From IMG/VR virus record IMGVR_UViG_3300042465_004126, positions 1 to 56,889 of that record: DNA of 56,889 nt; one strand, 5' to 3'. This DNA comes from a virus. Taxonomy: Duplodnaviria > Caudoviricetes. Shown here one piece after another: positions 17,819-31,738 of the stretch. The position numbers were made by a program, and so were the translations under genes. The notes beneath the pieces are model-generated. The model was not told the DNA's origin and did not search any database. It was given only the letters and a program-made list of their open reading frames with translations. The stretch's first letter is position 1. The number at the start of each line of letters is the position of its first letter.

Positions 17819-18603
17819 GTGTTGCGCTCCTTTAGTTTGGCTTCAGCAAGTCTAAAAATTTCCGTGACAATATGTCCGTCATCATCCTCAGTGCATCCCG
17901 CTGCCGTTGCAATTTTCTTTTTGTCCTCATCCGTCAGACTTAGCCACGGGCGCTGTGCTGCGGGTGGGGTGGCAAAGTGATCAGCCAGTTCACGCGCTTT
18001 GTGCTTGTTGATACCCTCTCGGACTAGGGTAACCACCACCATGTCTCGCCATTGACTCGGCTCCTGCTCTAACTGTGCTGACTTTTTAGCTACCCACGCA
18101 AGTCCAGTGTATGTCGGCTCGTACACGTAGCCAAGTGACTTCAAAATTTCTACCGCTTCGTTTGCAGCGGGTTGATAAAACTTCTGCGCTGGCTCTGCTG
18201 GCTGCACTGGTGGGGTGGCAAGACTGCAATCACAAGGCCCAACGGGTAGCGCATCGCCGTTGTGAACAGAGCAATCACTGTCGTGTATATTGCCGTTTTT
18301 GCAGGCGGCGCACTGGCAGTGTGTGGTCGCCCCTCGATTGCGCTCCTTTAGTTTGGCTTCAATGGATCTGGCAAAATCCATCAGTGCACCATCGTGGTCG
18401 GCGGGGATGCTGCTGGGCATCAGGTTCAATATTGTGCTGGCAGTCAGTTCTACCCACGGGCGCTGCACTGATCTTTTACCGTCTGCAAAACCGCTTCGGT
18501 ATGAGACCAACAGAGCAGCCTCATACTCTGCAATATAGACCTGTGCGTCGTTATCGTCCAGCTTGGCTTGCGCTGCTTGGCGCTTTGAATCAAATCCTGT
18601 CAT
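17815..18603 (-). CDS. Mosaic hypothetical protein with repeated 'QRPW..LT...EAKLKERN' modules
   Basis: Two copies of the module plus a Cys/His-rich segment (C.C..C....H.SDCSVHN....GPCDC). Confidence 0.65.
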   Translation of the reverse strand: MTGFDSKRQAAQAKLDDNDAQVYIAEYEAALLVSYRSGFADGKRSVQRPWVELTASTILNLMPSSIPADHDGALMDFARSIEAKLKERNRGATTHCQCAACKNGNIHDSDCSVHNGDALPVGPCDCSLATPPVQPAEPAQKFYQPAANEAVEILKSLGYVYEPTYTGLAWVAKKSAQLEQEPSQWRDMVVVTLVREGINKHKARELADHFATPPAAQRPWLSLTDEDKKKIATAAGCTEDDDGHIVTEIFRLAEAKLKERNT

Positions 18604-20809: not shown

Positions 20810-21286
20810 TCAGGCGTATCCGGTCTCCCACAACCATCTAGCGAGTAACAACGCCTCGGCTCGACCGTCATGTTTCTTCAGGTGGAGCGGCGCTGTCGGA
20901 AACAACCGAGTCGCTAACGCACGACTAAGCTCTTTGTCGGCGGTAAGTTTAAAATACTTTTTCCAGGTCGCAGGGTGAACCTGCACGAGTTCAAACCCAG
21001 CTGTTGCGAGCACAGCCCGGGCCGCGCCATAGGAGTCCCCCAAGCTGAACACTGAGCTAACCCCCTGCCCAGGCATAGCGCCTACTTTCTCTATAACCGA
21101 AACAACCGCCTCACCGGGTTGCAGGTGCCCCCTGATGAGCGTTTTCATACCCTGAGGGGAAACTTCTGACTTAACTGAGCCAACCCCCTTGAGAACCACG
21201 GGCATGTCCTCTACGGCCGCATAAACACCATTCCGGAGGAACCCCAGGGCACCTGTTAAGCCGGGGTCAATCGCCACTATAAGCAT
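20810..21286 (-). CDS. RuvC-like Holliday junction resolvase
   Basis: 'IVAIDPGLTGA', 'VIEKV.AMPGQGVSS.FSLG', 'P..WKK', 'DGRAEALLLA'. Confidence 0.85.
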   Translation of the reverse strand: MLIVAIDPGLTGALGFLRNGVYAAVEDMPVVLKGVGSVKSEVSPQGMKTLIRGHLQPGEAVVSVIEKVGAMPGQGVSSVFSLGDSYGAARAVLATAGFELVQVHPATWKKYFKLTADKELSRALATRLFPTAPLHLKKHDGRAEALLLARWLWETGYA

Positions 21287-22122
21287 TCGTACTCCTCGCA
21301 GGCGGTTTTCTGGGCATGTTTGCTGAGAGTCTCTCCGGTAATGGAACAAACCCACTCGCCCGGCAGCACTGCGGGGTCAACATGCACGCAAGACCGACAG
21401 GTTTTGAGCGGAGCCACCACGCCTGTGCAGACTTCTTTCATGTCGCAAAACTTGCAGCCGAAAGATTCCCCATCAGTGCTGATTCCTGCGGGCTTAAGTG
21501 TTGCGTTCACCAACGTAACAATTTTGTGTTTCGCGGCTTGTTGCACTACCGGGTCAGCTTTAATACGCTCAATATGGAACTGCTCATCGTCTTTGCACAG
21601 CGCGACGTAGAGTCCCCGGTCGAGCCCGCTCATCATAATACCCGCCTGCACTTGGGCATAATGTTCTGGCTTAGACTTTTGGACCCCGTGCTTGGCGACA
21701 CCGGAAAAACTGTTTTTGTTGTGCGTTTTGATTTCTAGCACGTGGGGGGTCTTTTTAGCTTCGGGTACACCTTTTACTATACCATCTAGTTTGACAATAA
21801 AGTGTCCGGTCTCGTCAACGTATTCGAGCTGCTGTCCGGTGTTAAGGTCACGATCCCATACGCTCACCCCTGCCGCACGCAGGTCGGCTACAATCCGCTC
21901 CTCCTGCCAGTGGCCGGTGCCAAACAGCCTGAGCATGCGCCCGCCAAATTTTGCTTGAGCATACGCCCGCCAACTCAGCCAGGTTTTTCTCATACACTCT
22001 TCGCCTAAAAATGAAGCGCCTAAGCGACCCAGGTAGAAACCCCGCTCGGCCTCTTTCACTTCATAGGTCTTGTAGATATTGTCAATGAGCTGCTGCTCGC
22101 TGCTCTTAGGTAGTGCTACCAT
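21277..22122 (-). CDS. PD-(D/E)XK exonuclease (Cas4/RecB-like, Cys cluster)
   Basis: 'LGAS..G.EC.R', 'LDG.....LEIKT', 'H.AQ.Q', 'CKFC...C...CRSC'. Confidence 0.85.
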   Translation of the reverse strand: MVALPKSSEQQLIDNIYKTYEVKEAERGFYLGRLGASFLGEECMRKTWLSWRAYAQAKFGGRMLRLFGTGHWQEERIVADLRAAGVSVWDRDLNTGQQLEYVDETGHFIVKLDGIVKGVPEAKKTPHVLEIKTHNKNSFSGVAKHGVQKSKPEHYAQVQAGIMMSGLDRGLYVALCKDDEQFHIERIKADPVVQQAAKHKIVTLVNATLKPAGISTDGESFGCKFCDMKEVCTGVVAPLKTCRSCVHVDPAVLPGEWVCSITGETLSKHAQKTACEEYECL

Positions 22123-22180: not shown

Positions 22181-22684
22181 TTAATCCCAAGGGTTGGTAG
22201 GCTTACCACTCGACTTCGCAGCCGGGGGCGGCGCAGCGGGTTTCGAGGCCACGGGTTTAACGGCTGCGGGCTTCTCATCTTCTTCAAACAAGAAGGCTTT
22301 CACCTCGTTGCTGTCGGCATAGCCGCCTGTCCCCTTGCTTATTCCGACCGAAGCCTTAAAAGGTTTGTCAATTAGCTTGTCAGTATCGTCGGCGTTAGGC
22401 TTACCGCACGCGGTGGCCCAAGCTACAAGCTGCTGTCGGCCGATAGCCTGGGCTTTTTCGCTCTTGTTGGTGATGTTGAAGTTTTGCCATATCCAGTGGC
22501 CTGCGTGCATGCCGCCGACCACCTCAAACTTCACTTTAATCATCGTACCGCCGGACTTAGTTTCTTTCTCTTCAGCCTCCAGCGCTTTCAACGTGTAGTC
22601 TCCAGGCTCAATAGGCTCGCGAGACCCCCCACCTACAGATGCAGACGCGTCCACTTCGCTGACGTCAAATCCAAATTTAGCCAT
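22181..22684 (-). CDS. Single-stranded DNA-binding protein (DUF669-like)
   Basis: 'PIEPGDY', 'K.TKSGG.MIK..FEV..G', Pro/Ala tail ending 'NPWD'; adjacent to Sak4-like ATPase. Confidence 0.8.
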   Translation of the reverse strand: MAKFGFDVSEVDASASVGGGSREPIEPGDYTLKALEAEEKETKSGGTMIKVKFEVVGGMHAGHWIWQNFNITNKSEKAQAIGRQQLVAWATACGKPNADDTDKLIDKPFKASVGISKGTGGYADSNEVKAFLFEEDEKPAAVKPVASKPAAPPPAAKSSGKPTNPWD

Positions 22685-22698
22685 GATATATTACTCCA

Positions 22699-23442
22699 TT
22701 AATTAGTAAGAGGGATGAGCTTTGACAAGTTATCGATTGTCATTTCGATGTCTTCCGGGCAGTTGAAACGGTTTTTAGCCGCGTAAGCGGGGCTCTCAAC
22801 GAAATGCAACAGCCGCTCGCCAGTGGTCACCCCACGCGCCTTGGCGACGTCGAAACCCTTAGCGTCGCTCTTCTTGATTATTACTTTAAACGCACAGAAT
22901 GCCAGCACGTCTACCCACTCCTGCATCAGCGCGTTGCAGGCTTTTGGCAGCTTAGGTTGGTAGCGGTCGTAAGGGTCAGTGCGGGGATCTTCAAATTTAA
23001 CCACCGCTGCGTGAGCAATAAGAACCACGTTCATATGCTTCTTGAGCCGCAGCGCATCCAACCCCTGCAAGATCTCTCGAAACTCTTCAGCCATGTACAT
23101 CTGCCCTTTGCCGTAGGCTTGCGCCTTCTCGTCGTACTGAGCGTTGATGCTAGCGCTGATGAGTGGCTCAACCAGCCAATCCACCGAGTCTACCACCACG
23201 GTTTTGAAGTCGTGCTCTTCTTTAAGCAGACTTTTTATGCTACCGACTACGTCAGTAATCACACCCGCCTTGGGGAAACTCACTACATCCAGTGAATCGA
23301 TACCGTCTTCGGTGCTGATGAAGATAGGCTTGGGGAATTGGCTAGCTAAAGTGGACTTGCCAATACCATGCCCACCATATATGCAGATACGCGGGGGGAC
23401 CTGTTGCTTGCCGGAACGCAAGCTATCTTTCCAGTTACTCAT
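22699..23442 (-). CDS. AAA_24 / Sak4-like ATPase (ssDNA-annealing recombinase)
   Basis: 'IYGGHGIGKSTLA', 'FKTVVVDSVDW', 'LIAH', 'AKNR'. Confidence 0.85.
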   Translation of the reverse strand: MSNWKDSLRSGKQQVPPRICIYGGHGIGKSTLASQFPKPIFISTEDGIDSLDVVSFPKAGVITDVVGSIKSLLKEEHDFKTVVVDSVDWLVEPLISASINAQYDEKAQAYGKGQMYMAEEFREILQGLDALRLKKHMNVVLIAHAAVVKFEDPRTDPYDRYQPKLPKACNALMQEWVDVLAFCAFKVIIKKSDAKGFDVAKARGVTTGERLLHFVESPAYAAKNRFNCPEDIEMTIDNLSKLIPLTN

Positions 23443-23468
23443 TATAAAGCTCCTTACAGTTAAACAGC

Positions 23469-23810
23469 TTACGCTGCGGAATCGAAACCCCGAGCCTCAG
23501 GACTAAAATCCCAGCGACGCGGAATATACACAAACTCATTACGGTCCCAACTGAGCGTGGTGATGATATCATCAAACTCAGAAGCCACCTTGATACAAAT
23601 AGCACATAAAGCGGGATCACCTATCATTAAAATTGAGTCTCCGGGCTGCCAGTCGGACAATACACGCCGTGCGTGCTCTATCATGCGGGGGGTGTTGTAG
23701 CTTCTCCCCACCGCACTAAAGACATCCAACAGCCGCCCGAACTGCTCGGCTGCTTTTAAGTCTTTGCGCTCATGTGCATGAGCCACGAAGACAGTTCGTT
23801 CATTTCGCAT
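23469..23810 (-). CDS. Hypothetical protein
   Basis: 'VFV...D...AEQFG.L...D.IL..GDP...L.WDR...Y.P'. Confidence 0.6.
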   Translation of the reverse strand: MRNERTVFVAHAHERKDLKAAEQFGRLLDVFSAVGRSYNTPRMIEHARRVLSDWQPGDSILMIGDPALCAICIKVASEFDDIITTLSWDRNEFVYIPRRWDFSPEARGFDSAA

Positions 23811-25629
23811 TTTTGCTTTTCCTTTCTTTTTTGACACTTGAAATCATTTGCTGTTCATCCAGCGTTAAATAATAGAAACAGCCGCAGGCTTGTGCTATTT
23901 TACAGGCCTCTCGGTAGTACCATGTATAGTCTAGATCAGCGGGTTTACCCACGGGCAGTGCCATGCAAGCTCGAGCGCCTTCGGTCTTAGGCACTTTATT
24001 TCCGTTCTTAACATACCGTAGCGGCTCTAACCCTAACTGGTTTGACATATACCACCGGACCACTTTACCCAAATACTTGCCGCCCTGCTGCCCGCCCCCA
24101 GTTACGTTGCGGGCGCTTATAAAACCCTCAAAGCCTGCGTTTTGTATGGTTTCGAGCAGCGGCGTGCCTGCGGCTAGCCATTGGCCTACAGCGTCCGCAC
24201 AAACCTGTGCAGTGGCGTTTTTATTGAGGCTGAGAGGGGCGTAGATGCCCTTGGCTTTGAGTTTGCGGTCGGTCTTGACTGCGAAGTAATTGTTGACGTC
24301 TTTCATGGCCAACACGCGGTACGGGGTAAACTCAAAATCAAAACCTGAGACCTGACCAAACCGAGCAACAACCCGCGCAACGTCCGCCTGCAGCGCCTGC
24401 GGGTAGCGCATAGCAAGTCCGTCGGTGTTAGCCGACAACGTGACTGCCCCTAGGTGCTCGAGCCATTCAATCAGCATCAGCAGCGTAAACTGGCCGGTTA
24501 ACGTCACCGCCAGCATGAGGTCCGGTGCGTAGAGCACGCTCCAGCGGCTGGCGAGCTTGCCGAATGTGCCGTTCAAACTGATCTTTAGGGTGGCATCGGT
24601 GATCTTGTCTTTGGCCTTCTTAGCGGCGAGCCGCTGCTCGTAAATCGTGCGGTACTCCGTAACAAATCGGGTTCCGAGCCCGGAAGGCACAAACCCACAC
24701 TCAAGGATTATGCTCGGGTAGAAACTAGCAGCGTCGATGTCGGTGATAACATCATCCCCCGCCACGTGGCAAACCGACTTGTCATGGGTGCTGTGAATGC
24801 CCCCAACCCCGAGCTGGTAAGTGCCGGCCCGGAAAGTCACCACCTCAGCCCCCAGGAAGTCCGGCAAGATGACATGCCCAGTAGCTTGATTCATGTCAAA
24901 CACATGCTGTGCGGTACGCTCGAGCAGCGCTTGCAACTCGGGCGTCTTAAACTTGAGGAACGCGGGCGGCTTATAGGTTATGGTCTTAGGGATGGTGTTG
25001 TCGGCACGCTTCAAACCCATTGTCGTTATGTATGCCTGCTCCGCCATTTGAGAGTCCGACTTGCTACGCATGTCGACCCCATATTGCTTGCTCATCTTCA
25101 CGCGGAGCATTAACTCCCCGTCGAGCCGCTTGAGCAACTCCTCCGTAGTGTCTAGGTCATTCACGTTGTATGTGTCAACCATAAGCCGCTGCTCAGGCGT
25201 GATTAACGCGTCATGCGCTATCGGCATGTCCTGCAGCAGCGGCATGTGCATGCGAGCGCCGTAGGCTTTCAAGCTCACAAACGACGGTGCGACCTCAATC
25301 AAGTCAATGCTGTCAAAACCCAGCTGGGGTAGGTTGTACTTGCGTGCCGCAGCCCAAGACTGAAGCCGGTTAACGATGAGGTCATCTGCGATACGCTTCA
25401 TCTCAGCCTCAGTTCGCCCCGCCACAAAAGCTGCAACAATGACGTCGTCAAAAAACTTGTTGTTAAACCCAACAAACGTCGAATCTGGTTGAATGAGAAA
25501 CTGTCGCAGCCGCTCAGCCGCACGGTCCTCATTCCGACGGATTTGCGTGACCTCGCCGGTGTCGACATTCTTGAAGCCGACAACGGTGTAGTTCACTAGG
25601 GTTTCGCAGTCAAACACGTAAGTGCTCAT
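23800..25629 (-). CDS. DNA polymerase, family B-like, with 3'-5' exonuclease
   Basis: ExoI 'FDCET', ExoII 'GFNNKFFD', ExoIII 'YNVND', motif A 'DIDAASFYPSII', motif B 'KISLNGTFGK', motif C 'NTDG'. Confidence 0.92.
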   Translation of the reverse strand: MSTYVFDCETLVNYTVVGFKNVDTGEVTQIRRNEDRAAERLRQFLIQPDSTFVGFNNKFFDDVIVAAFVAGRTEAEMKRIADDLIVNRLQSWAAARKYNLPQLGFDSIDLIEVAPSFVSLKAYGARMHMPLLQDMPIAHDALITPEQRLMVDTYNVNDLDTTEELLKRLDGELMLRVKMSKQYGVDMRSKSDSQMAEQAYITTMGLKRADNTIPKTITYKPPAFLKFKTPELQALLERTAQHVFDMNQATGHVILPDFLGAEVVTFRAGTYQLGVGGIHSTHDKSVCHVAGDDVITDIDAASFYPSIILECGFVPSGLGTRFVTEYRTIYEQRLAAKKAKDKITDATLKISLNGTFGKLASRWSVLYAPDLMLAVTLTGQFTLLMLIEWLEHLGAVTLSANTDGLAMRYPQALQADVARVVARFGQVSGFDFEFTPYRVLAMKDVNNYFAVKTDRKLKAKGIYAPLSLNKNATAQVCADAVGQWLAAGTPLLETIQNAGFEGFISARNVTGGGQQGGKYLGKVVRWYMSNQLGLEPLRYVKNGNKVPKTEGARACMALPVGKPADLDYTWYYREACKIAQACGCFYYLTLDEQQMISSVKKERKSKNAK

Positions 25630-26045
25630 CGGTCTTGGTTGACGTAGCCGGAGCCTGGGTTTGAACCTTCATACTCCGCAATGAGGGCCGCGAGTAAGTG
25701 CCGAGCAGCCTTCAGCTGCCCGAGTTGCGTCCACTCAAACACAACGTGGATGATGGCGGTCTCAAGCCCGACGATGCCGTTCTCGGCTAAAAACTGGGCA
25801 ACCTCGACACGAGGAACCGGGTTGCCGTGAGAGCCTGGTTGCGCAGAGCGCACCTCGATCAATTTCTGCAGGTAATGGTCAGCCTTTTGCAAGTCCTGCA
25901 GGCCGTTCTTCTTACGAAACCGGGACAAGTACTTGGTGCAGCAGCCCTCAAGGTAACCTACACCCCAAGTGTCAACGATGTCCCAATGCTGTAGGGTAGA
26001 TTGGTAATGCGAGCCCGCAACTTGGCGGGCGTTGGCGGAAATCAT
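25626..26045 (-). CDS. DUF3310 protein (putative nucleotide kinase)
   Basis: 'N.RQV.GSHY...QHWD...YLEG..TKYLSR.RKKNG.QDL.KA.HYL.KLIE'. Confidence 0.8.
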   Translation of the reverse strand: MISANARQVAGSHYQSTLQHWDIVDTWGVGYLEGCCTKYLSRFRKKNGLQDLQKADHYLQKLIEVRSAQPGSHGNPVPRVEVAQFLAENGIVGLETAIIHVVFEWTQLGQLKAARHLLAALIAEYEGSNPGSGYVNQDR

Positions 26046-26533
26046 ACAGGTACCCCCTGTTTGATGAGTTCGAAAAGTTCACGCTCGCGGCCAACCAACA
26101 CCATATCAAAAGCGTAGCGGTAGTAGCGGTCAAAAACGGACCGCATGCGGGAGTTGCCCAAGGCGAGATCCCGAGCACAGAACATCGCCCCTTGGGCTAA
26201 GTCAGCCAACTTAAGAATGCGTGCTTCTTCAAGGGTAAGCATAGGGAAATCGATACCCACCGAGCGCATTATCTTGGCCTCCATAGCGGATACCTGGTCG
26301 CTGATGCCGAACTGGCGCTTAGCTGGGCTGGGGATGTCCCCCGTCACCTGCTCAGCGAGGTCATGCAACAGCGCGGCCATCAATAGCTCTCGACTGGCGT
26401 TAGGGTCAATCAAGGTGCACAGCAGCGCGACTTGGTGCGAGTGGTGCCCGACGGTCTCCTGTTGCAATGTGCGCACCGTGTGGTAGCGCAGCACATCCGC
26501 CCCTGCGGCAAAGAAGTCGAGTCGCTCTTTCAC
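26042..26533 (-). CDS. HD-domain 5'-deoxynucleotidase (YfbR-like)
   Basis: 'RYH....ETVGHHS', 'ALLHDLAE..TGDIPSP.K', 'LKLAD'. Confidence 0.88.
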   Translation of the reverse strand: MKERLDFFAAGADVLRYHTVRTLQQETVGHHSHQVALLCTLIDPNASRELLMAALLHDLAEQVTGDIPSPAKRQFGISDQVSAMEAKIMRSVGIDFPMLTLEEARILKLADLAQGAMFCARDLALGNSRMRSVFDRYYRYAFDMVLVGRERELFELIKQGVPV

Positions 26534-26709
26534 AGGGTCACCTCTTCCTGCTGAACGGTTACGGTGTAACCCAGCAGCTTGATGTGCCGGATCGTTTGTG
26601 CAGTGAGGGTACGGGTTCCGGCGATAGCGGCAAACGACTGAGCGTCAGCACACACCGGGATTACCACTTGTTGGCCGTATTGGTCTTTAATGCGGACGAT
26701 GATCTTCAT
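26530..26709 (-). CDS. Small conserved phage protein, 59 aa
   Basis: Not in ORF track; MKIIVRIKDQYGQQVVIPVCADAQSFAAIAGTRTLT...LGY; GGAG RBS; GTGA overlap. Confidence 0.75.
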   Translation of the reverse strand: MKIIVRIKDQYGQQVVIPVCADAQSFAAIAGTRTLTAQTIRHIKLLGYTVTVQQEEVTL

Positions 26710-26748
26710 TTTTCAGTTACTCCAGTTATAGCAGTTATGTGCTGAGGT

Positions 26749-26789
26749 GAATTTTAGGCCGGAAATAACACCCCAGGCGATTGTATTTT
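26749..26789 (-). promoter_or_regulatory. Early/middle promoter (AAAATACAA...CCTAAAATTC)
   Basis: Shares upstream box and -10 region with 20734-20775 and 33207-33249; -35 degenerate. Confidence 0.65.
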
Positions 26790-26817
26790 CAAATCACACC
26801 CGCAAAGGCGATTGTGT

Positions 26818-27819
26818 TTACTCTTTCCCGGAGCGGATTAGGTCTCTCTTATCAATCCAGTCAAAACAGGCTCGACGCCAGTCATCTGCACGCACCTTAG
26901 CGGCCCAGCCCCGCCCGTCACCGGCGTGAATTTTACGCACCCGGCTGACCATTGCCATAGGGTGCGCGACGTGCTTGAGGAACGGGTGCGTATAGGTTGC
27001 CTCCTGGTTAAACGGGTCATCACAGAACCGCTCGCAGTCAACCAAGAATGACTTATATTCCCCGTTAAGCATGAGCGGAGAGGGTCTAATTTTTCCCGAG
27101 GAGTAATGGTCGTAGTCTTCAGCCATCGGCGGTTGTGACACGTAATGTTTGGCCTCATACAGCTCGGTGTAAAGATGCAAATTGTTGCTGATTTGACGGT
27201 AAATTCCAGGACGCAGGCCTACAGAACATGCAATAAACTCTTGCAAAATGCTAAAATGGACCGAGTTAGCCCCGTATGCCCCCCACCAGATATCATTTGA
27301 ACGGTTTAGTACGGTCATGTTCAGCCGACCGCCCCGAGTGTCAAACATCACCTGCGTGTTGCAGGCTTTGTCCCGGGTGCGTCGGTTCAAGTCCACGGGG
27401 TCCCAAATCTGCATGACAGCCTGCCGAGTCTTGGGATCACGCCGTAGCAGGTTGATGACGTCTACAATCTGGTCCCGTCCGAAGTGCTTGCGCAGTCGGT
27501 AACCATAGGCCGCGTTGTACACTTTGCCGTCATCGGAGTACTGCCCGATGCGGCTGTTGAACTGCTGCAGGAAAGCGACATCCCGCCGCCCCGCTAATAT
27601 CCACACGCTCTCAAGTAGATGAAAAATAGGGTTAGCGTCCCGCCCCAAGTGAAACAACACTCGCTCAACTGGGCAGTCGTAAGTGGTAATTACCGGCTCG
27701 GGTATAACCAGCGCGGGCCCGTTGCGCGTGGGCTCGGGCTTTAGACCTTCGGCGTTAAGGCGCCAAAATATCTCGCTGAATGCCTGGTTCACATTGCGGA
27801 CTTTAATTTCCATGCTCAA
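26818..27819 (-). CDS. Thymidylate synthase-fold dUMP hydroxymethylase
   Basis: 'TRNG', 'ANP.FHL.E..W.LAGR.D', 'SDDG', 'AYGYR', 'RQAV.QIWD', catalytic Cys in 'DKACN', 'NRSND..WG.YGAN' (Asn indicates dUMP specificity), 'NLHLY'. Confidence 0.85.
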   Translation of the reverse strand: MSMEIKVRNVNQAFSEIFWRLNAEGLKPEPTRNGPALVIPEPVITTYDCPVERVLFHLGRDANPIFHLLESVWILAGRRDVAFLQQFNSRIGQYSDDGKVYNAAYGYRLRKHFGRDQIVDVINLLRRDPKTRQAVMQIWDPVDLNRRTRDKACNTQVMFDTRGGRLNMTVLNRSNDIWWGAYGANSVHFSILQEFIACSVGLRPGIYRQISNNLHLYTELYEAKHYVSQPPMAEDYDHYSSGKIRPSPLMLNGEYKSFLVDCERFCDDPFNQEATYTHPFLKHVAHPMAMVSRVRKIHAGDGRGWAAKVRADDWRRACFDWIDKRDLIRSGKE

Positions 27820-28745
27820 AACTCCTTCTCAGGTATATAAGTGTTTTTAGGTTTGCCCTCACCCAGCACCGTGCGGCAGTATTTACTGTACTCACACATG
27901 CAGTTCTGCACGTCGTGCAGCGTTAAGTCAGTTATGTTCAATTCGTTCGCGATGCTGTTATTTATATCTTGTAACGCTGAGGTGAACCCGCCTGATTTCC
28001 AAGCCGCAAACGGTGCCCGCCCATGCAAGTAATTTAACCCCCGCAGGCTCCCCGGTCCCATAGGGGCATAGCTATAAAGGTCTGCCGCGCAGCTGAGGTG
28101 GCTATCTGGGTGATAAGTGAGGTCAGCGGCTACTTGCCCGGCCATGAACGTGCTAACGCCGAAACACGTGGATAACGCAGCGACAAACCTTTCAATGCTA
28201 CCCCCCGCCTCCAAGTCCTCTCGCCAGAGCTCATTATGGATAAGAGAGGCGTTTTGAACCACGCTACCGATAATGTACTTGGCCACGGTGCGAGCTTTGT
28301 TGATACCCGGGTTTTTAGTGGGGTAGAGCATATATGCCCCCGAATACACTTTAACCCCGGTAGCACGCAGAGCCTCAAGCACCGACTCAAACCGGGCGGC
28401 ATCGAACTTCGCAGGCGAGCATGGTAGAACCCCCGACTGAATCAAAGCCTGCAGGGTTGGGGGCCAGTTTACTAGGCGAGCCACCAACAACGTGAACCAC
28501 AAATCAAGCCGGTTCTCGTTAAGTTGCATCAAGTGTTTGATAACCCACTGAGAGACTCGGTCATCCCGGCGACGGATGTTGGTGAACTTGTACTTCTGCA
28601 GTACGGGGTCGGCGGTCCAGGGTGCGGGGTGCCCGTTCTCTTTTGCTAAACGAATGGCCTCTCGCTCCCAGATGAAATACAGCAAGCCCGGCATCGAGCA
28701 TACGGTTTCTGCAGTGGGGCGGGGGTAAGGGCAAGACCCAATCAC
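27816..28745 (-). CDS. aGPT-Pplase1 / 5-hmdU DNA kinase helical-domain family protein
   Basis: 'FIWERE.IR...PWT.DPVLQ.YKFTN.RR.DDR.S', 'SGAYM', 'FMAGQV.ADL.Y', 'GPGS.RGL', 'D.QN.MCEYSKY'. Confidence 0.85.
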   Translation of the reverse strand: MIGSCPYPRPTAETVCSMPGLLYFIWEREAIRLAKENGHPAPWTADPVLQKYKFTNIRRRDDRVSQWVIKHLMQLNENRLDLWFTLLVARLVNWPPTLQALIQSGVLPCSPAKFDAARFESVLEALRATGVKVYSGAYMLYPTKNPGINKARTVAKYIIGSVVQNASLIHNELWREDLEAGGSIERFVAALSTCFGVSTFMAGQVAADLTYHPDSHLSCAADLYSYAPMGPGSLRGLNYLHGRAPFAAWKSGGFTSALQDINNSIANELNITDLTLHDVQNCMCEYSKYCRTVLGEGKPKNTYIPEKEF

Positions 28746-29323
28746 TGCTCAGCCCCCCGCAAGTAAACCACCACCCCGCCCACCGCATCGGTATAATCGA
28801 GCCAGCGCACATCGTACCCCCCGGCCAGCGTCAGCAGCTCAGCGCTGCGGTGGCATTGCTCATACGCGCTGCGCATAGTCTTGCCAGGGTCGAACATTTT
28901 ATCGTTACCAGCTGCGGCGCGACGCTGTAGCACCCGCTCCAGGCAGGTCTCCCACGGGGTGTCCAGGAACGCAAAGATGGCGCCATGGTCTTTGAGGATA
29001 GGGGCTACGTGGCCGCCCGCGCTGGACTTGCTCATAAGCAGCCCTTCAACGAGCACGTGCCCTAGCGCATGGGCTTTGACTACACGCCCGGCAATCTCCT
29101 CCTGCGTGTTGATACCGTCGGTGCCGCCGCAGGTGTTCTCGTAACTGCCGACCACAAAGACCGGCACCGAGATACCCCAAGCGGAGGCGTCCACAGTGTA
29201 CCCAGCGGGGCGACCCGGCTTACCCCCGAGGGGTTGACAAGGTAGCCGATCCAGGAACCGACGCACGATGGTGGTCTTGCCCGAGCCGTTGCAGCCTCGA
29301 ATATTGACGATTTGGTGTTTCAT
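28742..29323 (-). CDS. P-loop nucleotide/DNA kinase (5-hmdU kinase candidate)
   Basis: 'IRGCNGSGKTT', 'GSY...CGG.D.I', 'VEGLL.S', 'LDTP.E.CL.RV..RR'. Confidence 0.82.
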   Translation of the reverse strand: MKHQIVNIRGCNGSGKTTIVRRFLDRLPCQPLGGKPGRPAGYTVDASAWGISVPVFVVGSYENTCGGTDGINTQEEIAGRVVKAHALGHVLVEGLLMSKSSAGGHVAPILKDHGAIFAFLDTPWETCLERVLQRRAAAGNDKMFDPGKTMRSAYEQCHRSAELLTLAGGYDVRWLDYTDAVGGVVVYLRGAEQ

Positions 29324-29327
29324 TCAG

Positions 29328-30317
29328 TTATTCCGTTATAAAGTGTTCAAGACGGTATGCTCTACCCGTCTCAGCAAACATTTTAGCCTTATTTGCGCGG
29401 GGTGTTTTCTTTGCGTCGCACTCTACCCGCAGCCAGTCCGGCAGGTGCCCCGCCCGTATAGCTTTAAACGGCTCAGTCTCCCGCTTGAAGTTGCGCTCGT
29501 CATACCACAGGATGCGCTCTTGAGCCATGTCCGCGTAAACGCCTGGGTACCGACGGCTGAAGAACCCATTCTTGAACTGGCAGTACTGGCTCTCAAGGGT
29601 GAAGTAACCCGCATCAGGGTGCTCTACTCCGTTTAAAACCTGGTCTGACTTGTCTCGCAGCCAGTCACACATGCCCGCGAAATTATCGTACTTACCGTCA
29701 AACCCGTTGCCCGCCCGCTTATCAAACACGAGGTGATCCAACCCCTGCAGGAACAGCGCCCCGTTGCGGTGCGACCGGGAGCCGTCAAAGTCTTCAAACA
29801 TGAGGTCAGTGCACGCTGCCCCAAACCCCATTATACGTACATACTCTAGGTATGAGAACGCGCTCAGCCGCCCAAAACTAAATATCTGCGTCGCAGTGTT
29901 CCAGCATTCCTGGTACGTTTTGCCGCTCCAGAGCGCGGCCTGCGACCCCGCTGCGCGGGCGAGTTTGCTGTAACTGTGTAAGGCTTTAAGCGTGTTGCGT
30001 TTGTTCTTGACGCGGTCGGTGTCAAACTGCAGCGTAACCCACTCAGCGTTAAACCACTCGTCTAGCTCCCGCCAGTGGGCGGGCATACGCGGGATCTCTG
30101 GCGACTTGTTAAAGATACGCAAAGAAGTTATGGGGTTCTGGGTGCAGCCGTTAATGACTGCAAACCAGAGCCGTTGCTCAGCACCCCAGCTGTAATGTGC
30201 GGCCAACTCAGGCATGTACAGGTAGACCAACCCGGGCATGACCCGGTGCTCAAGGTTCATCAAATACAGGTCTTTAAAGTACTTGGCTCTATGTTCTTTA
30301 AGGCGATAATCAATCAT
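29328..30317 (-). CDS. aGPT-Pplase2 / amino acid:DNA transferase-like protein
   Basis: 'DYRL..HR..YF', 'W.A.ING.TQNP.TS', 'FDTDR', HhH-like 'FGRLSAFSYLEY', 'GSRSHRNG', 'TLES..C..K...RRYPGVY.DM'. Confidence 0.8.
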   Translation of the reverse strand: MIDYRLKEHRAKYFKDLYLMNLEHRVMPGLVYLYMPELAAHYSWGAEQRLWFAVINGCTQNPITSLRIFNKSPEIPRMPAHWRELDEWFNAEWVTLQFDTDRVKNKRNTLKALHSYSKLARAAGSQAALWSGKTYQECWNTATQIFSFGRLSAFSYLEYVRIMGFGAACTDLMFEDFDGSRSHRNGALFLQGLDHLVFDKRAGNGFDGKYDNFAGMCDWLRDKSDQVLNGVEHPDAGYFTLESQYCQFKNGFFSRRYPGVYADMAQERILWYDERNFKRETEPFKAIRAGHLPDWLRVECDAKKTPRANKAKMFAETGRAYRLEHFITE

Positions 30318-30526
30318 GGTATAACCCCTGCAAGATGAGCCTGGGCATCATCAAAGGCTTCAAACAGGTGCCGGGTGGAGCGGTTTTCTTCAACGTCCTC
30401 CTGGACGTGAGTGAGCAGGGTACTAAGTACCCGCGCAGTGTCCATGTGCTCAGCTATGGCGGCTGCGAGCCGGGTGTCGCCTGAAATGTAAGCCCGCCGC
30501 TCGCGTTCGGTTAAAAGTAATTTCAT
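30314..30526 (-). CDS. Hypothetical protein
   Basis: 'ERERRAYISGD'; ATGA coupling on both sides inside the modification cluster. Confidence 0.6.
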   Translation of the reverse strand: MKLLLTERERRAYISGDTRLAAAIAEHMDTARVLSTLLTHVQEDVEENRSTRHLFEAFDDAQAHLAGVIP

Positions 30527-31527
30527 GCTGCCTCCGGGTGTGTGTAGAAAGGCTTAACCACGTTGACATCTGGTGCGCTACCGACTATCCAAAAACCGAC
30601 TGAGTCATTCTTAGGCAGAACATTGCCGAGAACGTTTTGCGCTTTGAGCCAGCGCCACATTTTGGCCTCATACGTGGGGTGAAAGTTGATTCCCGCATAA
30701 GTCTCACCCTTGAAAGCATCGCTGTACTTACTGTAGCCGGTGTCATGTAAGCTGAAGTGCTCCCATTCAAACGGCAGGTTATTAACATCCACCCCGATTA
30801 AATCCAACCTCTCTCGCATCCAGGAGCGTTTGTCAGGGCCAATGCCTAGGGTGAGCAACCGGGATACGCTCCGGGGAGATCTGGACAGCCCGAGGAGTAT
30901 GCTCGTCAGGGAGTTACACGAGCCCGCCGGGGCTATCAACGTAGTAACCTCGTCGGGGAGGTTGGATACCTGGTGTGCGCCGACTTCGTGGAACTTGCGC
31001 ACTGTCTCAGCGTCGTAGGTTTTGTGGTCTACGGTGATGCCATACTCTACGACGAGCGAGTCACCCCGCTTGAGATCGGCCACTTTACGCTGCAGTATGG
31101 GGTTGTACGGCCCGTTGGCGTATTCAAACGCAGCCCCGAAGCCCGCAGCCACTTGTGGGTTGACATGCTTCAACACGGTCTCGGGTTTGCTATAGACGAC
31201 CTGCCGGCAGCGGAGCCCGTAGTGCGCCCCCACAATAGCCGACATGCTCAGCTGCGGGGACTGGATGCTTGCCCCAGTGAGCACGTGCGTCTTGCCACCC
31301 CGGTAGCGGTTCATATACCAGATGAGCTGGCGCATCTTGCTGCCGTTAGGGCCACCGTACCCCAGCGGGGCGAAGTAGTCCTCGCGCTTAAACCAGATGC
31401 CTTCCCGGTTCTGCCACGGGGTGAGCGTGGCCAGTTGGGACTCCCAGGCGAGCTGGGAATGGTTTATAGTGAGAGAGGGGAAGACGGTTTCAATCATTTG
31501 AGGGCCACTCGAGTATTTCGTTTTCAA
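30523..31527 (-). CDS. PLP-dependent enzyme, fold type II (DNA-modification decarboxylase candidate)
   Basis: 'LTP......FKREDY......NGSKMRQ' (PLP lysine), 'SPQ', 'PAGSCNS', 'HPTYEAK'. Confidence 0.85.
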   Translation of the reverse strand: MKTKYSSGPQMIETVFPSLTINHSQLAWESQLATLTPWQNREGIWFKREDYFAPLGYGGPNGSKMRQLIWYMNRYRGGKTHVLTGASIQSPQLSMSAIVGAHYGLRCRQVVYSKPETVLKHVNPQVAAGFGAAFEYANGPYNPILQRKVADLKRGDSLVVEYGITVDHKTYDAETVRKFHEVGAHQVSNLPDEVTTLIAPAGSCNSLTSILLGLSRSPRSVSRLLTLGIGPDKRSWMRERLDLIGVDVNNLPFEWEHFSLHDTGYSKYSDAFKGETYAGINFHPTYEAKMWRWLKAQNVLGNVLPKNDSVGFWIVGSAPDVNVVKPFYTHPEAA

Positions 31528-31738
31528 TCCTAGCGACGTCGTCAGCGGTGAGCTTTTTAGCCAACCACGGAGCGGGGCGACCTCGGCGGTCGCAGAGCTC
31601 CCAGTCTATTTCGGAGTAGCCGTGGTAGTCGTGGTCGCTAGCGGCGTGGTAGTTGTAACTACCTTTGACCACATTCACATAGTCAATCCGGGCTGTGCAG
31701 GGTATACCCGCAACCCGAGTCTCCATTAACGTGCTCAC
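31490..31738 (-). CDS. Hypothetical phage protein
   Basis: 'ETRVAGIPC...AASD.DY.GY.E..W...DRRGR.A.WL..KLT..D..RI'. Confidence 0.7.
   Translation of the reverse strand: MSTLMETRVAGIPCTARIDYVNVVKGSYNYHAASDHDYHGYSEIDWELCDRRGRPAPWLAKKLTADDVARIENEILEWPSND

What the first reader, a model, noticed from the sequence alone, without database searches (positions are those of the whole stretch)
25626..31527. Complete thymidine-hypermodification cluster with an unusual enzyme set in a podovirus-like phage
Seen: a tightly packed, mostly overlapping minus-strand run of PLP enzyme, 70-aa ORF, aGPT-Pplase2-like protein, P-loop kinase, aGPT-Pplase1-like protein and TS-fold enzyme, then HD hydrolase, DUF3310 and PolB. 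The TS-fold enzyme has Asn at the specificity position (WGAYGAN), implying a dUMP substrate. Known: in phages M6/YuA, ViI, PhiW-14 and SP10, hmdU is incorporated into DNA, phosphorylated by a DNA kinase, substituted by an amino acid:DNA transferase and then tailored. M6 needs a radical-SAM isomerase plus a PLP decarboxylase, while ViI uses serine plus a PLP decarboxylase. Inference: I see no radical-SAM (CxxxCxxC), flavin or acetyltransferase gene here, so the base may be ViI-like 5-(2-aminoethoxy)methyl-dU or a new decarboxylated amino-acid adduct. The characterised examples I know of are sipho- or myoviruses.
Basis: partly seen in the sequence, partly recalled or inferred. Interest (0 to 1): 0.85.

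Follow-up and report, generated by a model that had tools for sequence, protein, structure and literature searches.

The report
ViI-type thymine hypermodification operon, freshwater phage
An uncultured lake-water phage carries a complete, tightly packed gene set for replacing thymine in its DNA with an amino-acid-derived base; it is the same kit as in Salmonella phage ViI, but which amino acid it attaches cannot be read from the sequence.

Summary
Window 23800-31527 (minus strand) encodes, in order:
- a ViI gp226-type PLP enzyme
- a 70-aa ORF
- an amino acid:DNA transferase (ADDT/aGPT-Pplase2)
- a P-loop kinase like M6 gp54
- HMUDK_hel/aGPT-Pplase1
- a TS-fold enzyme with uracil-specifying Asn185
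- a 59-aa ORF
- a YfbR-like HD hydrolase
- a DUF3310 protein
- a family-B-like DNA polymerase

Seven of the nine junctions within the finding's range, plus the DUF3310-polymerase junction, are 4-nt overlaps. The whole 56.9-kb genome has no radical-SAM, GNAT or DAO-type flavin gene.

The enzyme set is not unusual. It equals the ViI set, laid out in M6/YuA gene order. It is common: at least 572 IMG/VR stretches encode a relative of the ADDT, and 72 of the 73 fetched loci that hold all four genes keep the ADDT-kinase-helical-TS order.

What is open is the donor. The ADDT lies in a well-supported clade with no characterised member. It differs from the ViI serine-transferase clade at two of three published specificity positions (Q/T and N versus W and K).

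Most likely mechanism: 5-hmdU incorporation, phosphorylation on DNA, transfer of an amino acid through its side chain, then PLP decarboxylation. The product would be 5-NeOmdU or a close analogue.

This scan has noted the same kind of operon on other DNA. Verdict: new member of a known kind, moderate interest.

The parts
30523..31527 (-). Fold-type-II PLP enzyme, ViI gp226 type (predicted decarboxylase of the DNA-linked amino acid), 334 aa, Lys64
   Evidence: PHROG 3650 at 1e-76. 32% identity, E 7e-60 to ViI gp226; only E 0.002 to M6 gp52. Lys64 aligns with the PLP lysine of D-cysteine desulfhydrase and with M6 K36 and the ViI lysine. No Pfam match.
30314..30526 (-). 70-aa ORF of unknown function, translationally coupled on both sides
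   Evidence: No Pfam or PHROG match. Found in only 3 of 84 related loci.
29328..30317 (-). Amino acid:DNA transferase (ADDT / aGPT-Pplase2), 329 aa; Glu242-Ser243 metal site, Cys246, pocket Gln247/Asn250/Arg256
   Evidence: PF18724 at 45.9 bits. AF2 model pLDDT 97.9. The top three Foldseek PDB hits are all PaMx11 gp46 (probability 1.00, TM 0.58/0.65). Tree and pocket columns.
28742..29323 (-). P-loop kinase, predicted 5-hmdU DNA kinase, 193 aa, Walker A at residues 10-17
   Evidence: 29% identity, E 1e-11 to the assayed kinase M6 gp54. PHROG 800 at 2.5e-18. Pfam HMUDK_HMUD1 reaches only 20 bits against a cut-off of 27.
27816..28745 (-). HMUDK_hel / aGPT-Pplase1 helical protein, 309 aa; role unproven
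   Evidence: PF18723 at 150.9 bits. 32% identity to M6 gp55. AF2 model pLDDT 91.4, with only weak HhH-glycosylase hits (MagIII probability 0.82, E 0.15). Cys284, Glu285 and Lys288 are invariant in 41 sequences.
26818..27819 (-). TS-fold enzyme, predicted dUMP hydroxymethylase, 333 aa, Cys153, Asn185
   Evidence: PF00303 at 73.1 bits. PHROG 5131 at 2e-103, against 1e-28 for the general ThyA PHROG 160. 42% identity to M6 gp58. The best PDB match is CMP 5-hydroxymethylase 5b6d (4e-21), against 5e-13 for the best thymidylate synthase. It is the only TS-fold gene in the genome.
26530..26709 (-). 59-aa ORF of unknown function
   Evidence: No family match. Detected in 15 of 84 related loci.
26042..26533 (-). 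HD-domain hydrolase, YfbR-like 5'-deoxynucleotidase type (predicted dTMP/dTTP pool remodelling; inferred)
   Evidence: PF12917 at 41.7 bits. 32% identity to M6 gp59. Present in 54 of 84 related loci.
25626..26045 (-). DUF3310 protein, homologue of M6 gp61; function unknown
   Evidence: PF11753 at 31.6 bits. 38% identity to M6 gp61. Shares only a 33-residue motif with T7 gp1.7 nucleotide kinase (E 0.008).
23800..25629 (-). DNA polymerase, family-B-like, 609 aa
   Evidence: PHROG 1252 at 3e-157. PDB 1s5j at E 2.4e-4. No BLASTP hit to the M6 gp62 polymerase.

Best explanation
This is a complete, co-transcribed ViI-type thymidine hypermodification operon of an uncultured freshwater phage.

**Inferred steps.**
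1. The TS-fold enzyme makes 5-hmdUMP from dUMP.
2. Host kinases, possibly helped by the DUF3310 protein, raise it to 5-hmdUTP. The HD hydrolase may lower competing dT nucleotides.
3. The phage's own family-B-like polymerase incorporates 5-hmdU.
4. The P-loop kinase phosphorylates the 5-hydroxymethyl group on DNA. A role for the aGPT-Pplase1 helical protein here is not proven.
5. The ADDT uses Cys246 and a Glu242/Ser243-bound metal to displace the phosphate with a free amino acid. The amino acid is joined through its side chain, which leaves the alpha-amine free.
6. The gp226-type PLP enzyme (Lys64) removes the carboxyl group.

If the donor is serine, the product is 5-(2-aminoethoxy)methyl-dU (5-NeOmdU). 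Serine is the single most likely donor, at about 40%. The transferase's pocket differs from ViI's, so another amino acid is almost as likely.

**Status.** Only the gene identities, conserved residues and gene order are shown here. All the chemistry is inferred from characterised homologues.
For: - **Family and homologue matches for every step**.
  - TS-fold enzyme: 42% identity to M6 gp58, and nearer to a solved pyrimidine hydroxymethylase (4e-21) than to any thymidylate synthase (5e-13).
  - P-loop kinase: 29% identity to M6 gp54, which was assayed as a 5-hmdU DNA kinase (Lee 2021, section read).
  - PLP enzyme: 32% identity, E 7e-60 to ViI gp226, which was assayed as the O-SerT decarboxylase (section read). 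The lysine is conserved.
- **ADDT.** It keeps the catalytic Cys and the metal ligands named by Li 2026 (sections and passages read). It folds like PaMx11 gp46.
- **Pathway logic.** The genome has no radical-SAM isomerase, FAD lyase or GNAT. The PLP step therefore needs a donor with a free alpha-amine, as in ViI (logic stated in Lee 2021).
- **Pocket.** Arg256 is shared with all long-clade ADDTs, and the diamine-type Asp is absent.
- **Conservation.**
  - 84 fetched loci encode a relative of the ADDT. In 72 of the 73 that have P-loop, helical and TS hits, these follow the ADDT in the window's order.
  - The PLP gene was found in 50 of 63 loci with enough flank.
  - One natural PALP-ADDT fusion exists, P0141.
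- **Same set in ViI.** ViI has the same five kinds of enzyme.
Against: - No chemistry was or could be tested.
- The ADDT is only 26% identical to ViI gp247. It lies in a separate, well-supported clade with no characterised member.
- Two of the three positions that Li 2026 names as specificity determinants differ from the ViI clade. The window clade has Q9/T5 and N14. The ViI clade has W8 and K8.
- The PLP gene was not found within reach in 13 of 63 informative related loci.
- The Pfam kinase model HMUDK_HMUD1 is below its cut-off.
- The roles of the HD, DUF3310 and aGPT-Pplase1 proteins are guesses. M6 gp55 was dispensable in vitro. DUF3310 shares only a short motif with T7 gp1.7.
- No dCMP deaminase or dUTPase was found to feed dUMP.
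Confidence: 0.75

Rival explanations
1. Same pathway logic, but the transferase attaches an amino acid other than serine through its side chain (for example threonine, homoserine, cysteine, or a basic amino acid). Decarboxylation then yields a thymidine derivative not yet described.
For: - The window ADDT clade (14 rows, support 100) is separate from the ViI clade (8 rows, support 100). It sits in a 57-row clade with no characterised member.
- Specificity positions are Q/T and N in the window clade and W and K in the ViI clade, each conserved within its clade.
- Li 2026 showed that two such positions suffice to switch donor (section read).
- The Pfam ADDT profile scores ViI at 199 bits and this protein at 46 bits.
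Against: - The PLP partner is clearly of the gp226 type.
- Arg256 and Tyr257 are shared with the ViI clade.
- Clade-specific pocket changes need not change the donor.
- No amino-acid biosynthesis gene was seen in the genome that would point to a special donor.
Confidence: 0.35
2. The PLP enzyme acts on a free amino acid to make an amine. The ADDT then transfers that amine directly, as PhiW-14 and SH-Ab 15599 do with diamines.
For: - Direct amine transfer by ADDTs is established for PhiW-14 and for phage 15599 (Lee 2021 Table 1; Li 2026 abstract).
- The PLP gene is not always adjacent to the ADDT. In some relatives it lies 1-5 kb away, and it was not found in 13 of 63 loci.
Against: - The pocket lacks the acidic residues of the diamine enzymes (15599 G227, H230, D238). 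It has Arg256 instead.
- The ADDT lies outside the glycine/diamine clade.
- The nearest characterised PLP homologue acts on DNA-bound O-SerT.
Confidence: 0.08
3. M6/PaMx11-type chemistry: glycine is attached through its alpha-amine (N-alpha-GlyT), and the PLP enzyme does something else.
For: The kinase, helical, TS, HD and DUF3310 genes are closest to M6/YuA, and the gene order mirrors M6 gp51-62.
Against: - No radical-SAM isomerase or FAD lyase occurs anywhere in the genome, nor an M6 gp53 homologue in any of 84 related loci.
- The glycine-binding Lys (YuA K248) is Gln here.
- M6 gp52 did not act on N-alpha-GlyT.
- The ADDT is outside the glycine clade.
Confidence: 0.03
4. The TS-fold enzyme is an ordinary thymidylate synthase, and the DNA carries no 5-hmdU from nucleotide pools. 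The cluster would then be inactive or serve another substrate.
For: - Pfam places the protein in Thymidylat_synt.
- Catalytic Cys and Asn are shared with true thymidylate synthases.
- No activity was tested.
Against: - The best solved relative is a hydroxymethylase, not a thymidylate synthase.
- PHROG 5131 fits far better than the general ThyA PHROG 160.
- The closest relatives are the TS-fold enzymes of M6/YuA-like phages, annotated there as dUMP hydroxymethyltransferase.
- The gene overlaps the aGPT-Pplase1 gene by 4 nt and keeps this place in 72 of 73 loci.
- No TET/JBP alternative route was seen in the ORFs scanned with Pfam.
Confidence: 0.03

Closest known systems
Salmonella phage ViI (Ackermannviridae) 5-NeOmdU pathway: dUMP hydroxymethyltransferase, 5-hmdU DNA kinases gp67/gp243, aGPT-Pplase1, serine:DNA transferase gp247, PLP decarboxylase gp226
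   Same: - Same five kinds of enzyme, with no radical-SAM, flavin or acetyltransferase step.
- The PLP enzyme is a clear gp226 homologue (E 7e-60).
- The ADDT belongs to the same long superclade and shares Arg256/Tyr257, the Cys and the metal site.
   Different: - In ViI the genes are scattered over a 157-kb myovirus genome. Here they form one overlapping operon in a 57-kb phage.
- The ADDT is only 26% identical and sits in another clade, with Gln/Asn where the ViI clade has invariant Trp/Lys.
- The kinase, helical and TS genes are closer to M6 than to ViI.
Pseudomonas phages M6/YuA (Mesyanzhinovviridae) 5-NedU cluster gp51-gp62
   Same: - Gene order P-loop kinase, aGPT-Pplase1, TS-fold, HD, DUF3310-like, DNA polymerase.
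- Identities: 29% kinase, 32% helical, 42% TS, 32% HD, 38% gp61.
- A YuA_Gp49-family ORF lies just upstream in the window.
   Different: - No radical-SAM isomerase.
- The PLP enzyme is of the ViI type, not the gp52 type (E 0.002).
- The ADDT is outside the glycine clade.
- The polymerase is family-B-like and unrelated by BLASTP to M6 gp62.
Glutamicibacter phage Montesquieu cluster (uncharacterised; annotated Pplase1, TS/hydroxymethylase, Pplase2, ACC-deaminase-like PLP enzyme, kinases)
   Same: - Among the nearest cultured ADDTs (34% identity) and PLP enzymes (31%).
- Same kinds of genes, with ADDT and PLP adjacent.
- Same 57-row ADDT clade.
   Different: - Actinobacterial phage with a different gene order.
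- Pocket Thr/Ser instead of Gln/Asn.
- I found no report of its base in the searches I ran.
HTVC023P-type pelagiphage podoviruses with TS plus aGPT-Pplase1 next to the polymerase (PMC9599517)
   Same: About 57-kb uncultured aquatic phages, with TS and aGPT-Pplase1 beside the DNA polymerase and M6-like affinities (passages read).
   Different: - In the passages I read, that paper reports only TS and Pplase1 (plus a deoxynucleotidase), with PolA.
- Here ADDT, kinase and PLP enzyme are also present, and the polymerase is family-B-like.
- TerL is only about 30% identical to HTVC027P.

Membership tests
ViI-type 5-hmdU thymidine hypermodification pathway | TS-fold dUMP hydroxymethylase supplying 5-hmdUMP | tested here: inconclusive
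   The sequence features fit: Cys153, Asn185, best PDB match a hydroxymethylase, 42% identity to M6 gp58. Hydroxymethylase versus methylase activity cannot be read from these tools.
ViI-type 5-hmdU thymidine hypermodification pathway | P-loop 5-hmdU DNA kinase | tested here: met
   Homologue of the assayed kinase M6 gp54 (29% identity, E 1e-11), in the same PHROG 800. Walker A residues G10, G13, S14, G15 and K16 are invariant in 41 sequences. Caveat: Pfam HMUDK_HMUD1 reaches 20 bits, below its cut-off of 27.
ViI-type 5-hmdU thymidine hypermodification pathway | gp226-type fold-type-II PLP enzyme with Schiff-base lysine | tested here: met
   32% identity, E 7e-60 to ViI gp226 over residues 13-325. 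Lys64 is aligned with M6 K36 and the ViI lysine.
ViI-type 5-hmdU thymidine hypermodification pathway | No radical-SAM isomerase, FAD lyase or acetyltransferase | tested here: met
   Six-frame HMM searches of the complete genome found none. Controls rang in 14 of 14 genomes each.
ViI-type 5-hmdU thymidine hypermodification pathway | Serine donor joined through oxygen (ViI-clade transferase) | tested here: not met
   The ADDT is outside the ViI clade. It differs at two of the three specificity positions (Q247, N250 versus W, K). The donor itself is not testable here.
ViI-type 5-hmdU thymidine hypermodification pathway | 5-NeOmdU present in virion DNA | not testable with these tools
   Only Logan contigs of public runs were on offer, and no raw or native reads.
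Pfam ADDT (PF18724, aGPT-Pplase2) | Profile match over the gathering score; catalytic Cys; metal-binding Glu-Thr/Ser; Pplase2 fold | tested here: met
   45.9 bits against a cut-off of 26.2. C246, E242 and S243 are conserved. In the Foldseek search all three top hits are PaMx11 gp46 (probability 1.00, TM 0.58/0.65, E 2.6e-3). The sequence profile against the PDB is only marginal: 25qc at E 0.061.
Pfam HMUDK_hel (PF18723, aGPT-Pplase1) | Profile match over the gathering score | tested here: met
   150.9 bits against a cut-off of 25. 32% identity to M6 gp55.
M6/PaMx11-type glycine pathway | Glycine-type ADDT (Lys at YuA 248) plus radical-SAM isomerase or FAD lyase | tested here: not met
   Gln247 replaces the Lys. 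No radical-SAM or DAO gene in the genome. The ADDT is outside the glycine clade.
Diamine:DNA transferase type (PhiW-14, SH-Ab 15599) | Pocket Gly/His/Asp (15599 G227, H230, D238) | tested here: not met
   Gln247, Asn250 and Arg256 occupy the aligned columns.

The most novel reading that the evidence does not exclude
A large, uncultured, mostly freshwater lineage of roughly 55-65-kb phages uses a distinct ADDT clade (pocket Gln/Thr-Asn-Arg) to attach an amino acid other than serine to thymine. After gp226-type decarboxylation, this gives a DNA base that has not been described chemically.
Probability: 0.35. Interest if true: 0.65.

Novelty: new member of a known kind. Interest (0 to 1): 0.4.

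Why it matters
Hypermodified thymines protect phage DNA from restriction enzymes and are sources of new DNA-modifying enzymes. This operon is a compact, complete, single-strand cassette of a kind so far characterised only in ViI, where the genes are scattered. That makes it a convenient unit to express.

Its transferase represents a very common environmental clade whose donor is unknown. One in vitro assay on this cassette would therefore assign a base to hundreds of uncultured phage genomes. If the donor is serine, the finding is ordinary. If not, it adds a new natural DNA base.

Tried and rejected
- **Near-identical DNA in cultured phages.** None found.
- **ADDT against the PDB.** The single sequence found nothing. 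The profile found only marginal matches. The fold search was needed.
- **Helical protein as a paralogue of the ADDT.** hhalign gave 5% probability. Foldseek gave only weak HhH-glycosylase rows, with PaMx11 gp46 at rank 16. This is not shown.
- **P-loop kinase bound to the helical protein.** Complex prediction gave no verdict (score 0.03 against a mark of 0.32). This counts neither for nor against binding.
- **DUF3310 as a T7 gp1.7-type nucleotide kinase.** Only a 33-residue motif is shared (E 0.008). I keep this as speculation only.
- **Native-read evidence of modification.** All 24 runs listed are Logan contigs, which cannot show base modification.
- **Extra DNA between ADDT and kinase in relatives L057 and L079.** It contains only small ORFs and one further P-loop protein, with no recognisable tailoring enzyme.
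- **CxxxCxxC scan.** It found two chance motifs in open frames, at 18279 (+) and 1293 (-), and one spanning a stop codon. The Radical_SAM HMM found nothing.
- **Phage morphology.** It could not be settled. The CRP-901/902 paper held no morphology word among those I searched.
- **Papers.** Figures and supplements were not available. Fig. 2 of Lee 2021 and Fig. 3E/H and the SSN of Li 2026 may already show contigs or cluster logos of this type.
- **Tree.** The tree used 90 rows. From the 150 listed representatives I kept the 73 of 270-460 residues, dropping fragments and fusions. I added 7 close homologues, 9 phage anchors and the window protein. It is a quick LG+G4 search.

Full report
**What the window is.** The window is a whole IMG/VR virus record of 56,889 bp with direct terminal repeats, rated 100% complete. 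It has no near-identical relative among 50,697 deposited phage records. Its large terminase is closest to Roseobacter phages CRP-901/902 (46%). Its polymerase is at most 39% identical to any cultured phage's. Public runs that hold the stretch are mostly lake and other freshwater metagenomes: 24 runs of 19 studies, one of them probably the source, all kept as Logan contigs. Of the 30 larger ORFs scanned against PHROGs, none matched a tape-measure, sheath or tail-tube family. This is consistent with a podovirus-like virion but does not show one.

**The observation.** Eight of the ten junctions are 4-nt overlaps. The exceptions are a 4-nt gap between ADDT and kinase and a 108-nt gap after the TS-fold gene.
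- Pfam places the 329-aa protein in ADDT (45.9 bits). It places the 309-aa protein in HMUDK_hel (150.9 bits) and the 333-aa protein in Thymidylat_synt (73.1 bits). The 163-aa protein falls in YfbR-like HD hydrolases and the 139-aa protein in DUF3310.
- The P-loop protein is below the Pfam cut-off for HMUDK_HMUD1 (20 versus 27 bits). It is 29% identical (E 1e-11) to M6 gp54, the kinase that Lee et al. 2021 assayed.
- The PLP enzyme has no Pfam match. It is 32% identical (E 7e-60) to ViI gp226 and only marginally related to M6 gp52 (E 0.002). Its Lys64 aligns with the PLP lysine of D-cysteine desulfhydrase and with the lysines named for gp52 and gp226.
- The TS-fold enzyme has WGAYGAN. Asn185 is aligned to the Asn of thymidylate synthases and to the Asp of the CMP hydroxymethylase MilA. 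Cys153 is at the catalytic position. MilA (4e-21) is a better match than any thymidylate synthase (best 5e-13). It is the only TS-fold gene in the genome.
- Six-frame searches of the whole genome found no Radical_SAM, Acetyltransf_1 or DAO domain, with positive controls in 14 of 14 reference genomes each.

**Is the enzyme set unusual?** No.
- ViI encodes the same kinds of protein: HMUDK_hel (1e-84), ADDT gp247 (199 bits), PLP gp226 and P-loop kinases.
- The order of genes here mirrors M6/YuA gp51-gp62, which run ADDT, PLP, radical SAM, kinase, helical, two small ORFs, TS, HD, two small ORFs, polymerase.
- The kinase, helical, TS, HD and DUF3310 proteins are each closest to, or clearly homologous with, their M6 counterparts (29, 32, 42, 32 and 38% identity).
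- Relative to M6, the operon lacks the radical-SAM gene, carries a ViI-type instead of a gp52-type PLP enzyme, has an ADDT of another clade, and has a family-B-like polymerase (1s5j, E 2.4e-4) where M6 has an unrelated one.
- A cultured actinophage, Glutamicibacter phage Montesquieu, also has Pplase1, TS/hydroxymethylase, Pplase2, an adjacent ACC-deaminase-like PLP enzyme and kinases.

**How common it is.**
- The ADDT has 551 homologues at E <= 1e-5 in the 5.8-billion protein collection. The best 120 are all 55-91% identical, and many come from contigs of 54-66 kb.
- In the 50%-identity representative library, 175 clusters match at E <= 0.001.
- I examined 84 fetched loci. In 73, the P-loop, helical and TS genes were all detected, and in 72 of these they follow the ADDT in the window's order. 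In 66, DUF3310 and the polymerase follow as well. HD was seen in 54 loci, orf59 in 15 and orf70 in 3. A homologue of the M6 radical-SAM enzyme was seen in none.
- The PLP gene was found in 50 of the 63 loci that either showed it or had at least 2.5 kb upstream of the ADDT. In 13 it was not found within reach.
- Relatives of the ADDT also occur fused to Tet_JBP oxygenases, to P-loop kinases and, once (P0141), to a PALP-type PLP domain. This supports the functional link between ADDT and PLP enzyme.

**What remains open: the donor.** A quick maximum-likelihood tree of 90 ADDTs separates a short clade from a long superclade. The short clade holds the glycine enzymes (M6, YuA, PaMx11) and the diamine enzymes (PhiW-14, SH-Ab 15599). 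Within the long superclade:
- the ViI/phiA8-29 serine clade (8 rows, support 100) is distinct;
- there is a 20-row clade;
- a 57-row clade (support 98) contains the window's clade (14 rows, support 100) and the actinophage side.

No member of the 57-row clade is characterised.

Li et al. 2026 report a catalytic Cys, metal ligands (15599 D25, E222, T223) and three cluster-specific positions (G227, H230, D238) that set donor choice. They changed a diamine enzyme into a glycine enzyme with two substitutions. In my alignment the window protein keeps Glu242, Ser243 and Cys246. At the three specificity columns:

| Clade | Position 1 | Position 2 | Position 3 |
|---|---|---|---|
| Window | Q9/T5 | N14 | R14 |
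| ViI | W8 | K8 | R8 |
| Glycine | K | S | H |
| Diamine | G | H | D |

. My column for the third position lies one residue before the Tyr that the paper pairs with D238, so that column is uncertain by one residue.

Within the window's clade in IMG/VR there are two pocket subtypes: Q..N-G (the window's) and T..N-H. Both are usually accompanied by the PLP gene: 15 of 21 and 34 of 41 informative loci, the latter count including five more distant loci that carry Ser at the Asn column.

An AlphaFold2 model of the ADDT is confident (pLDDT 97.9). Its only meaningful structural neighbours are the three PaMx11 gp46 entries (probability 1.00, TM 0.58/0.65, E 2.6e-3). Membership of the fold is therefore supported, although sequence-profile matches to solved ADDTs are marginal.

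**Mechanism.** Shown here: gene identities, conserved catalytic residues, translational coupling and conservation of the cassette. Inferred from characterised homologues:
- dUMP is converted to 5-hmdUMP by the TS-fold enzyme.
- 5-hmdU is incorporated by the phage polymerase.
- It is phosphorylated on DNA by the P-loop kinase.
- The phosphate is displaced by an amino acid through the ADDT.
- The adduct is decarboxylated by the PLP enzyme.

There is no isomerase to unmask an amine, so the donor must keep a free alpha-amine. That means it must be joined through its side chain, as serine is in ViI (logic in Lee 2021). Arg256, shared by all long-clade ADDTs and absent from the diamine enzymes, fits a carboxylate-bearing donor; this is inference.

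The HD hydrolase may lower dT nucleotide pools. This is by analogy with the pool-remodelling dTTPase/dUTPase of phage 15599, which belongs to another family. The DUF3310 protein's role is unknown: it shares only a 33-residue motif with T7 gp1.7.

The aGPT-Pplase1 protein's role is also unknown. M6 gp55 was dispensable in vitro, and five papers in the library mention the family without a function (listing only). Its model resembles HhH glycosylases only weakly. It has invariant Cys284, Glu285 and Lys288 in 41 sequences.

Consensus scans place terminator-like hairpins at 32240-32225 and 22165-22148 on the minus strand. These would bracket one transcription unit joining the modification and replication genes. 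However, terminator-like sites are not more frequent than in shuffles (25 versus 18.6 +/- 5.0).

**Comparison and verdict.** The operon works like the ViI pathway and is built like the M6 cluster. It passes the membership tests for ADDT, HMUDK_hel, the gp226-type PLP enzyme and the M6 gp54-type kinase, and it lacks the M6/PaMx11 tailoring enzymes. It does not pass the test for a ViI-clade (serine) transferase.

In the papers I could search, 5-NeOmdU is reported in ViI and a second Ackermannviridae phage, phiHS2, and described there as the family's modification. Seven papers were listed by title and abstract, and three were read in part.

Earlier notes of this scan describe the same kind of operon in other uncultured phages. 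One followed-up case reached the same conclusion, that the transferase is ordinary and its donor unknown.

I file it as a new member of a known kind. I give a 35% chance that the very common ADDT clade it represents makes a base not yet described.

Noticed in passing
window 27816-28745: The aGPT-Pplase1/HMUDK_hel protein has invariant Gln280, Asn281, Cys284, Glu285 and Lys288 across 41 relatives. This looks more like an active site than a passive helical domain. Its function is not in the papers I could search.
   Followed up: partly
window 31490-31738: An 82-aa ORF just upstream of the PLP gene belongs to Pfam YuA_Gp49 (2e-18). This is another link to YuA/M6-like phages.
   Followed up: no
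window 22181-23837: The replication and recombination genes downstream of the polymerase are Pam3_gp32-like (23469-23837), Sak4-like annealase (22699-23442) and DUF669 (22181-22684). A Cas4-type exonuclease follows at 21277-22122.
   Followed up: no
window 32240-32225 and 22165-22148 (minus strand): Two G+C-rich hairpins with T tails could bracket a single transcription unit joining the modification and replication genes. This is a consensus match only.
   Followed up: no
protein P0156 (660 aa, metagenome): An ADDT homologue is interrupted by an intein with an HNH endonuclease (Intein_splicing 2.6e-10, HNH_3 8.6e-10).
   Followed up: no
proteins P0133, P0135, P0136, P0137, P0141, P0150: Long-clade ADDTs occur fused to Tet_JBP oxygenase, to P-loop kinases (one HMUD2 in a 1278-aa protein) and to a PALP-type PLP domain.
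   Followed up: partly
loci L025-L035, L057, L082 versus L038-L056 (IMG/VR): The window's ADDT clade splits into two pocket subtypes, Q..N-G and T..N-H. In 13 of 63 informative loci no PLP gene lies within reach of the ADDT.
   Followed up: partly
L004 8190-9156: A close relative has about 1 kb of extra DNA between the TS-fold and HD genes, where the window has orf59.
   Followed up: no
window 39761-42757: A 998-aa ORF sits between the large terminase and the portal gene, with only weak PHROG matches near its C-terminus.
   Followed up: no
L023 1-3465 (Mycobacterium phage VioletZ): Among the nearest cultured ADDTs (35% identity) is gene 3 of Coopervirus mycobacteriophages. It lies beside an annotated adenylate kinase, and the record has no HMUDK_hel match.
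   Followed up: no
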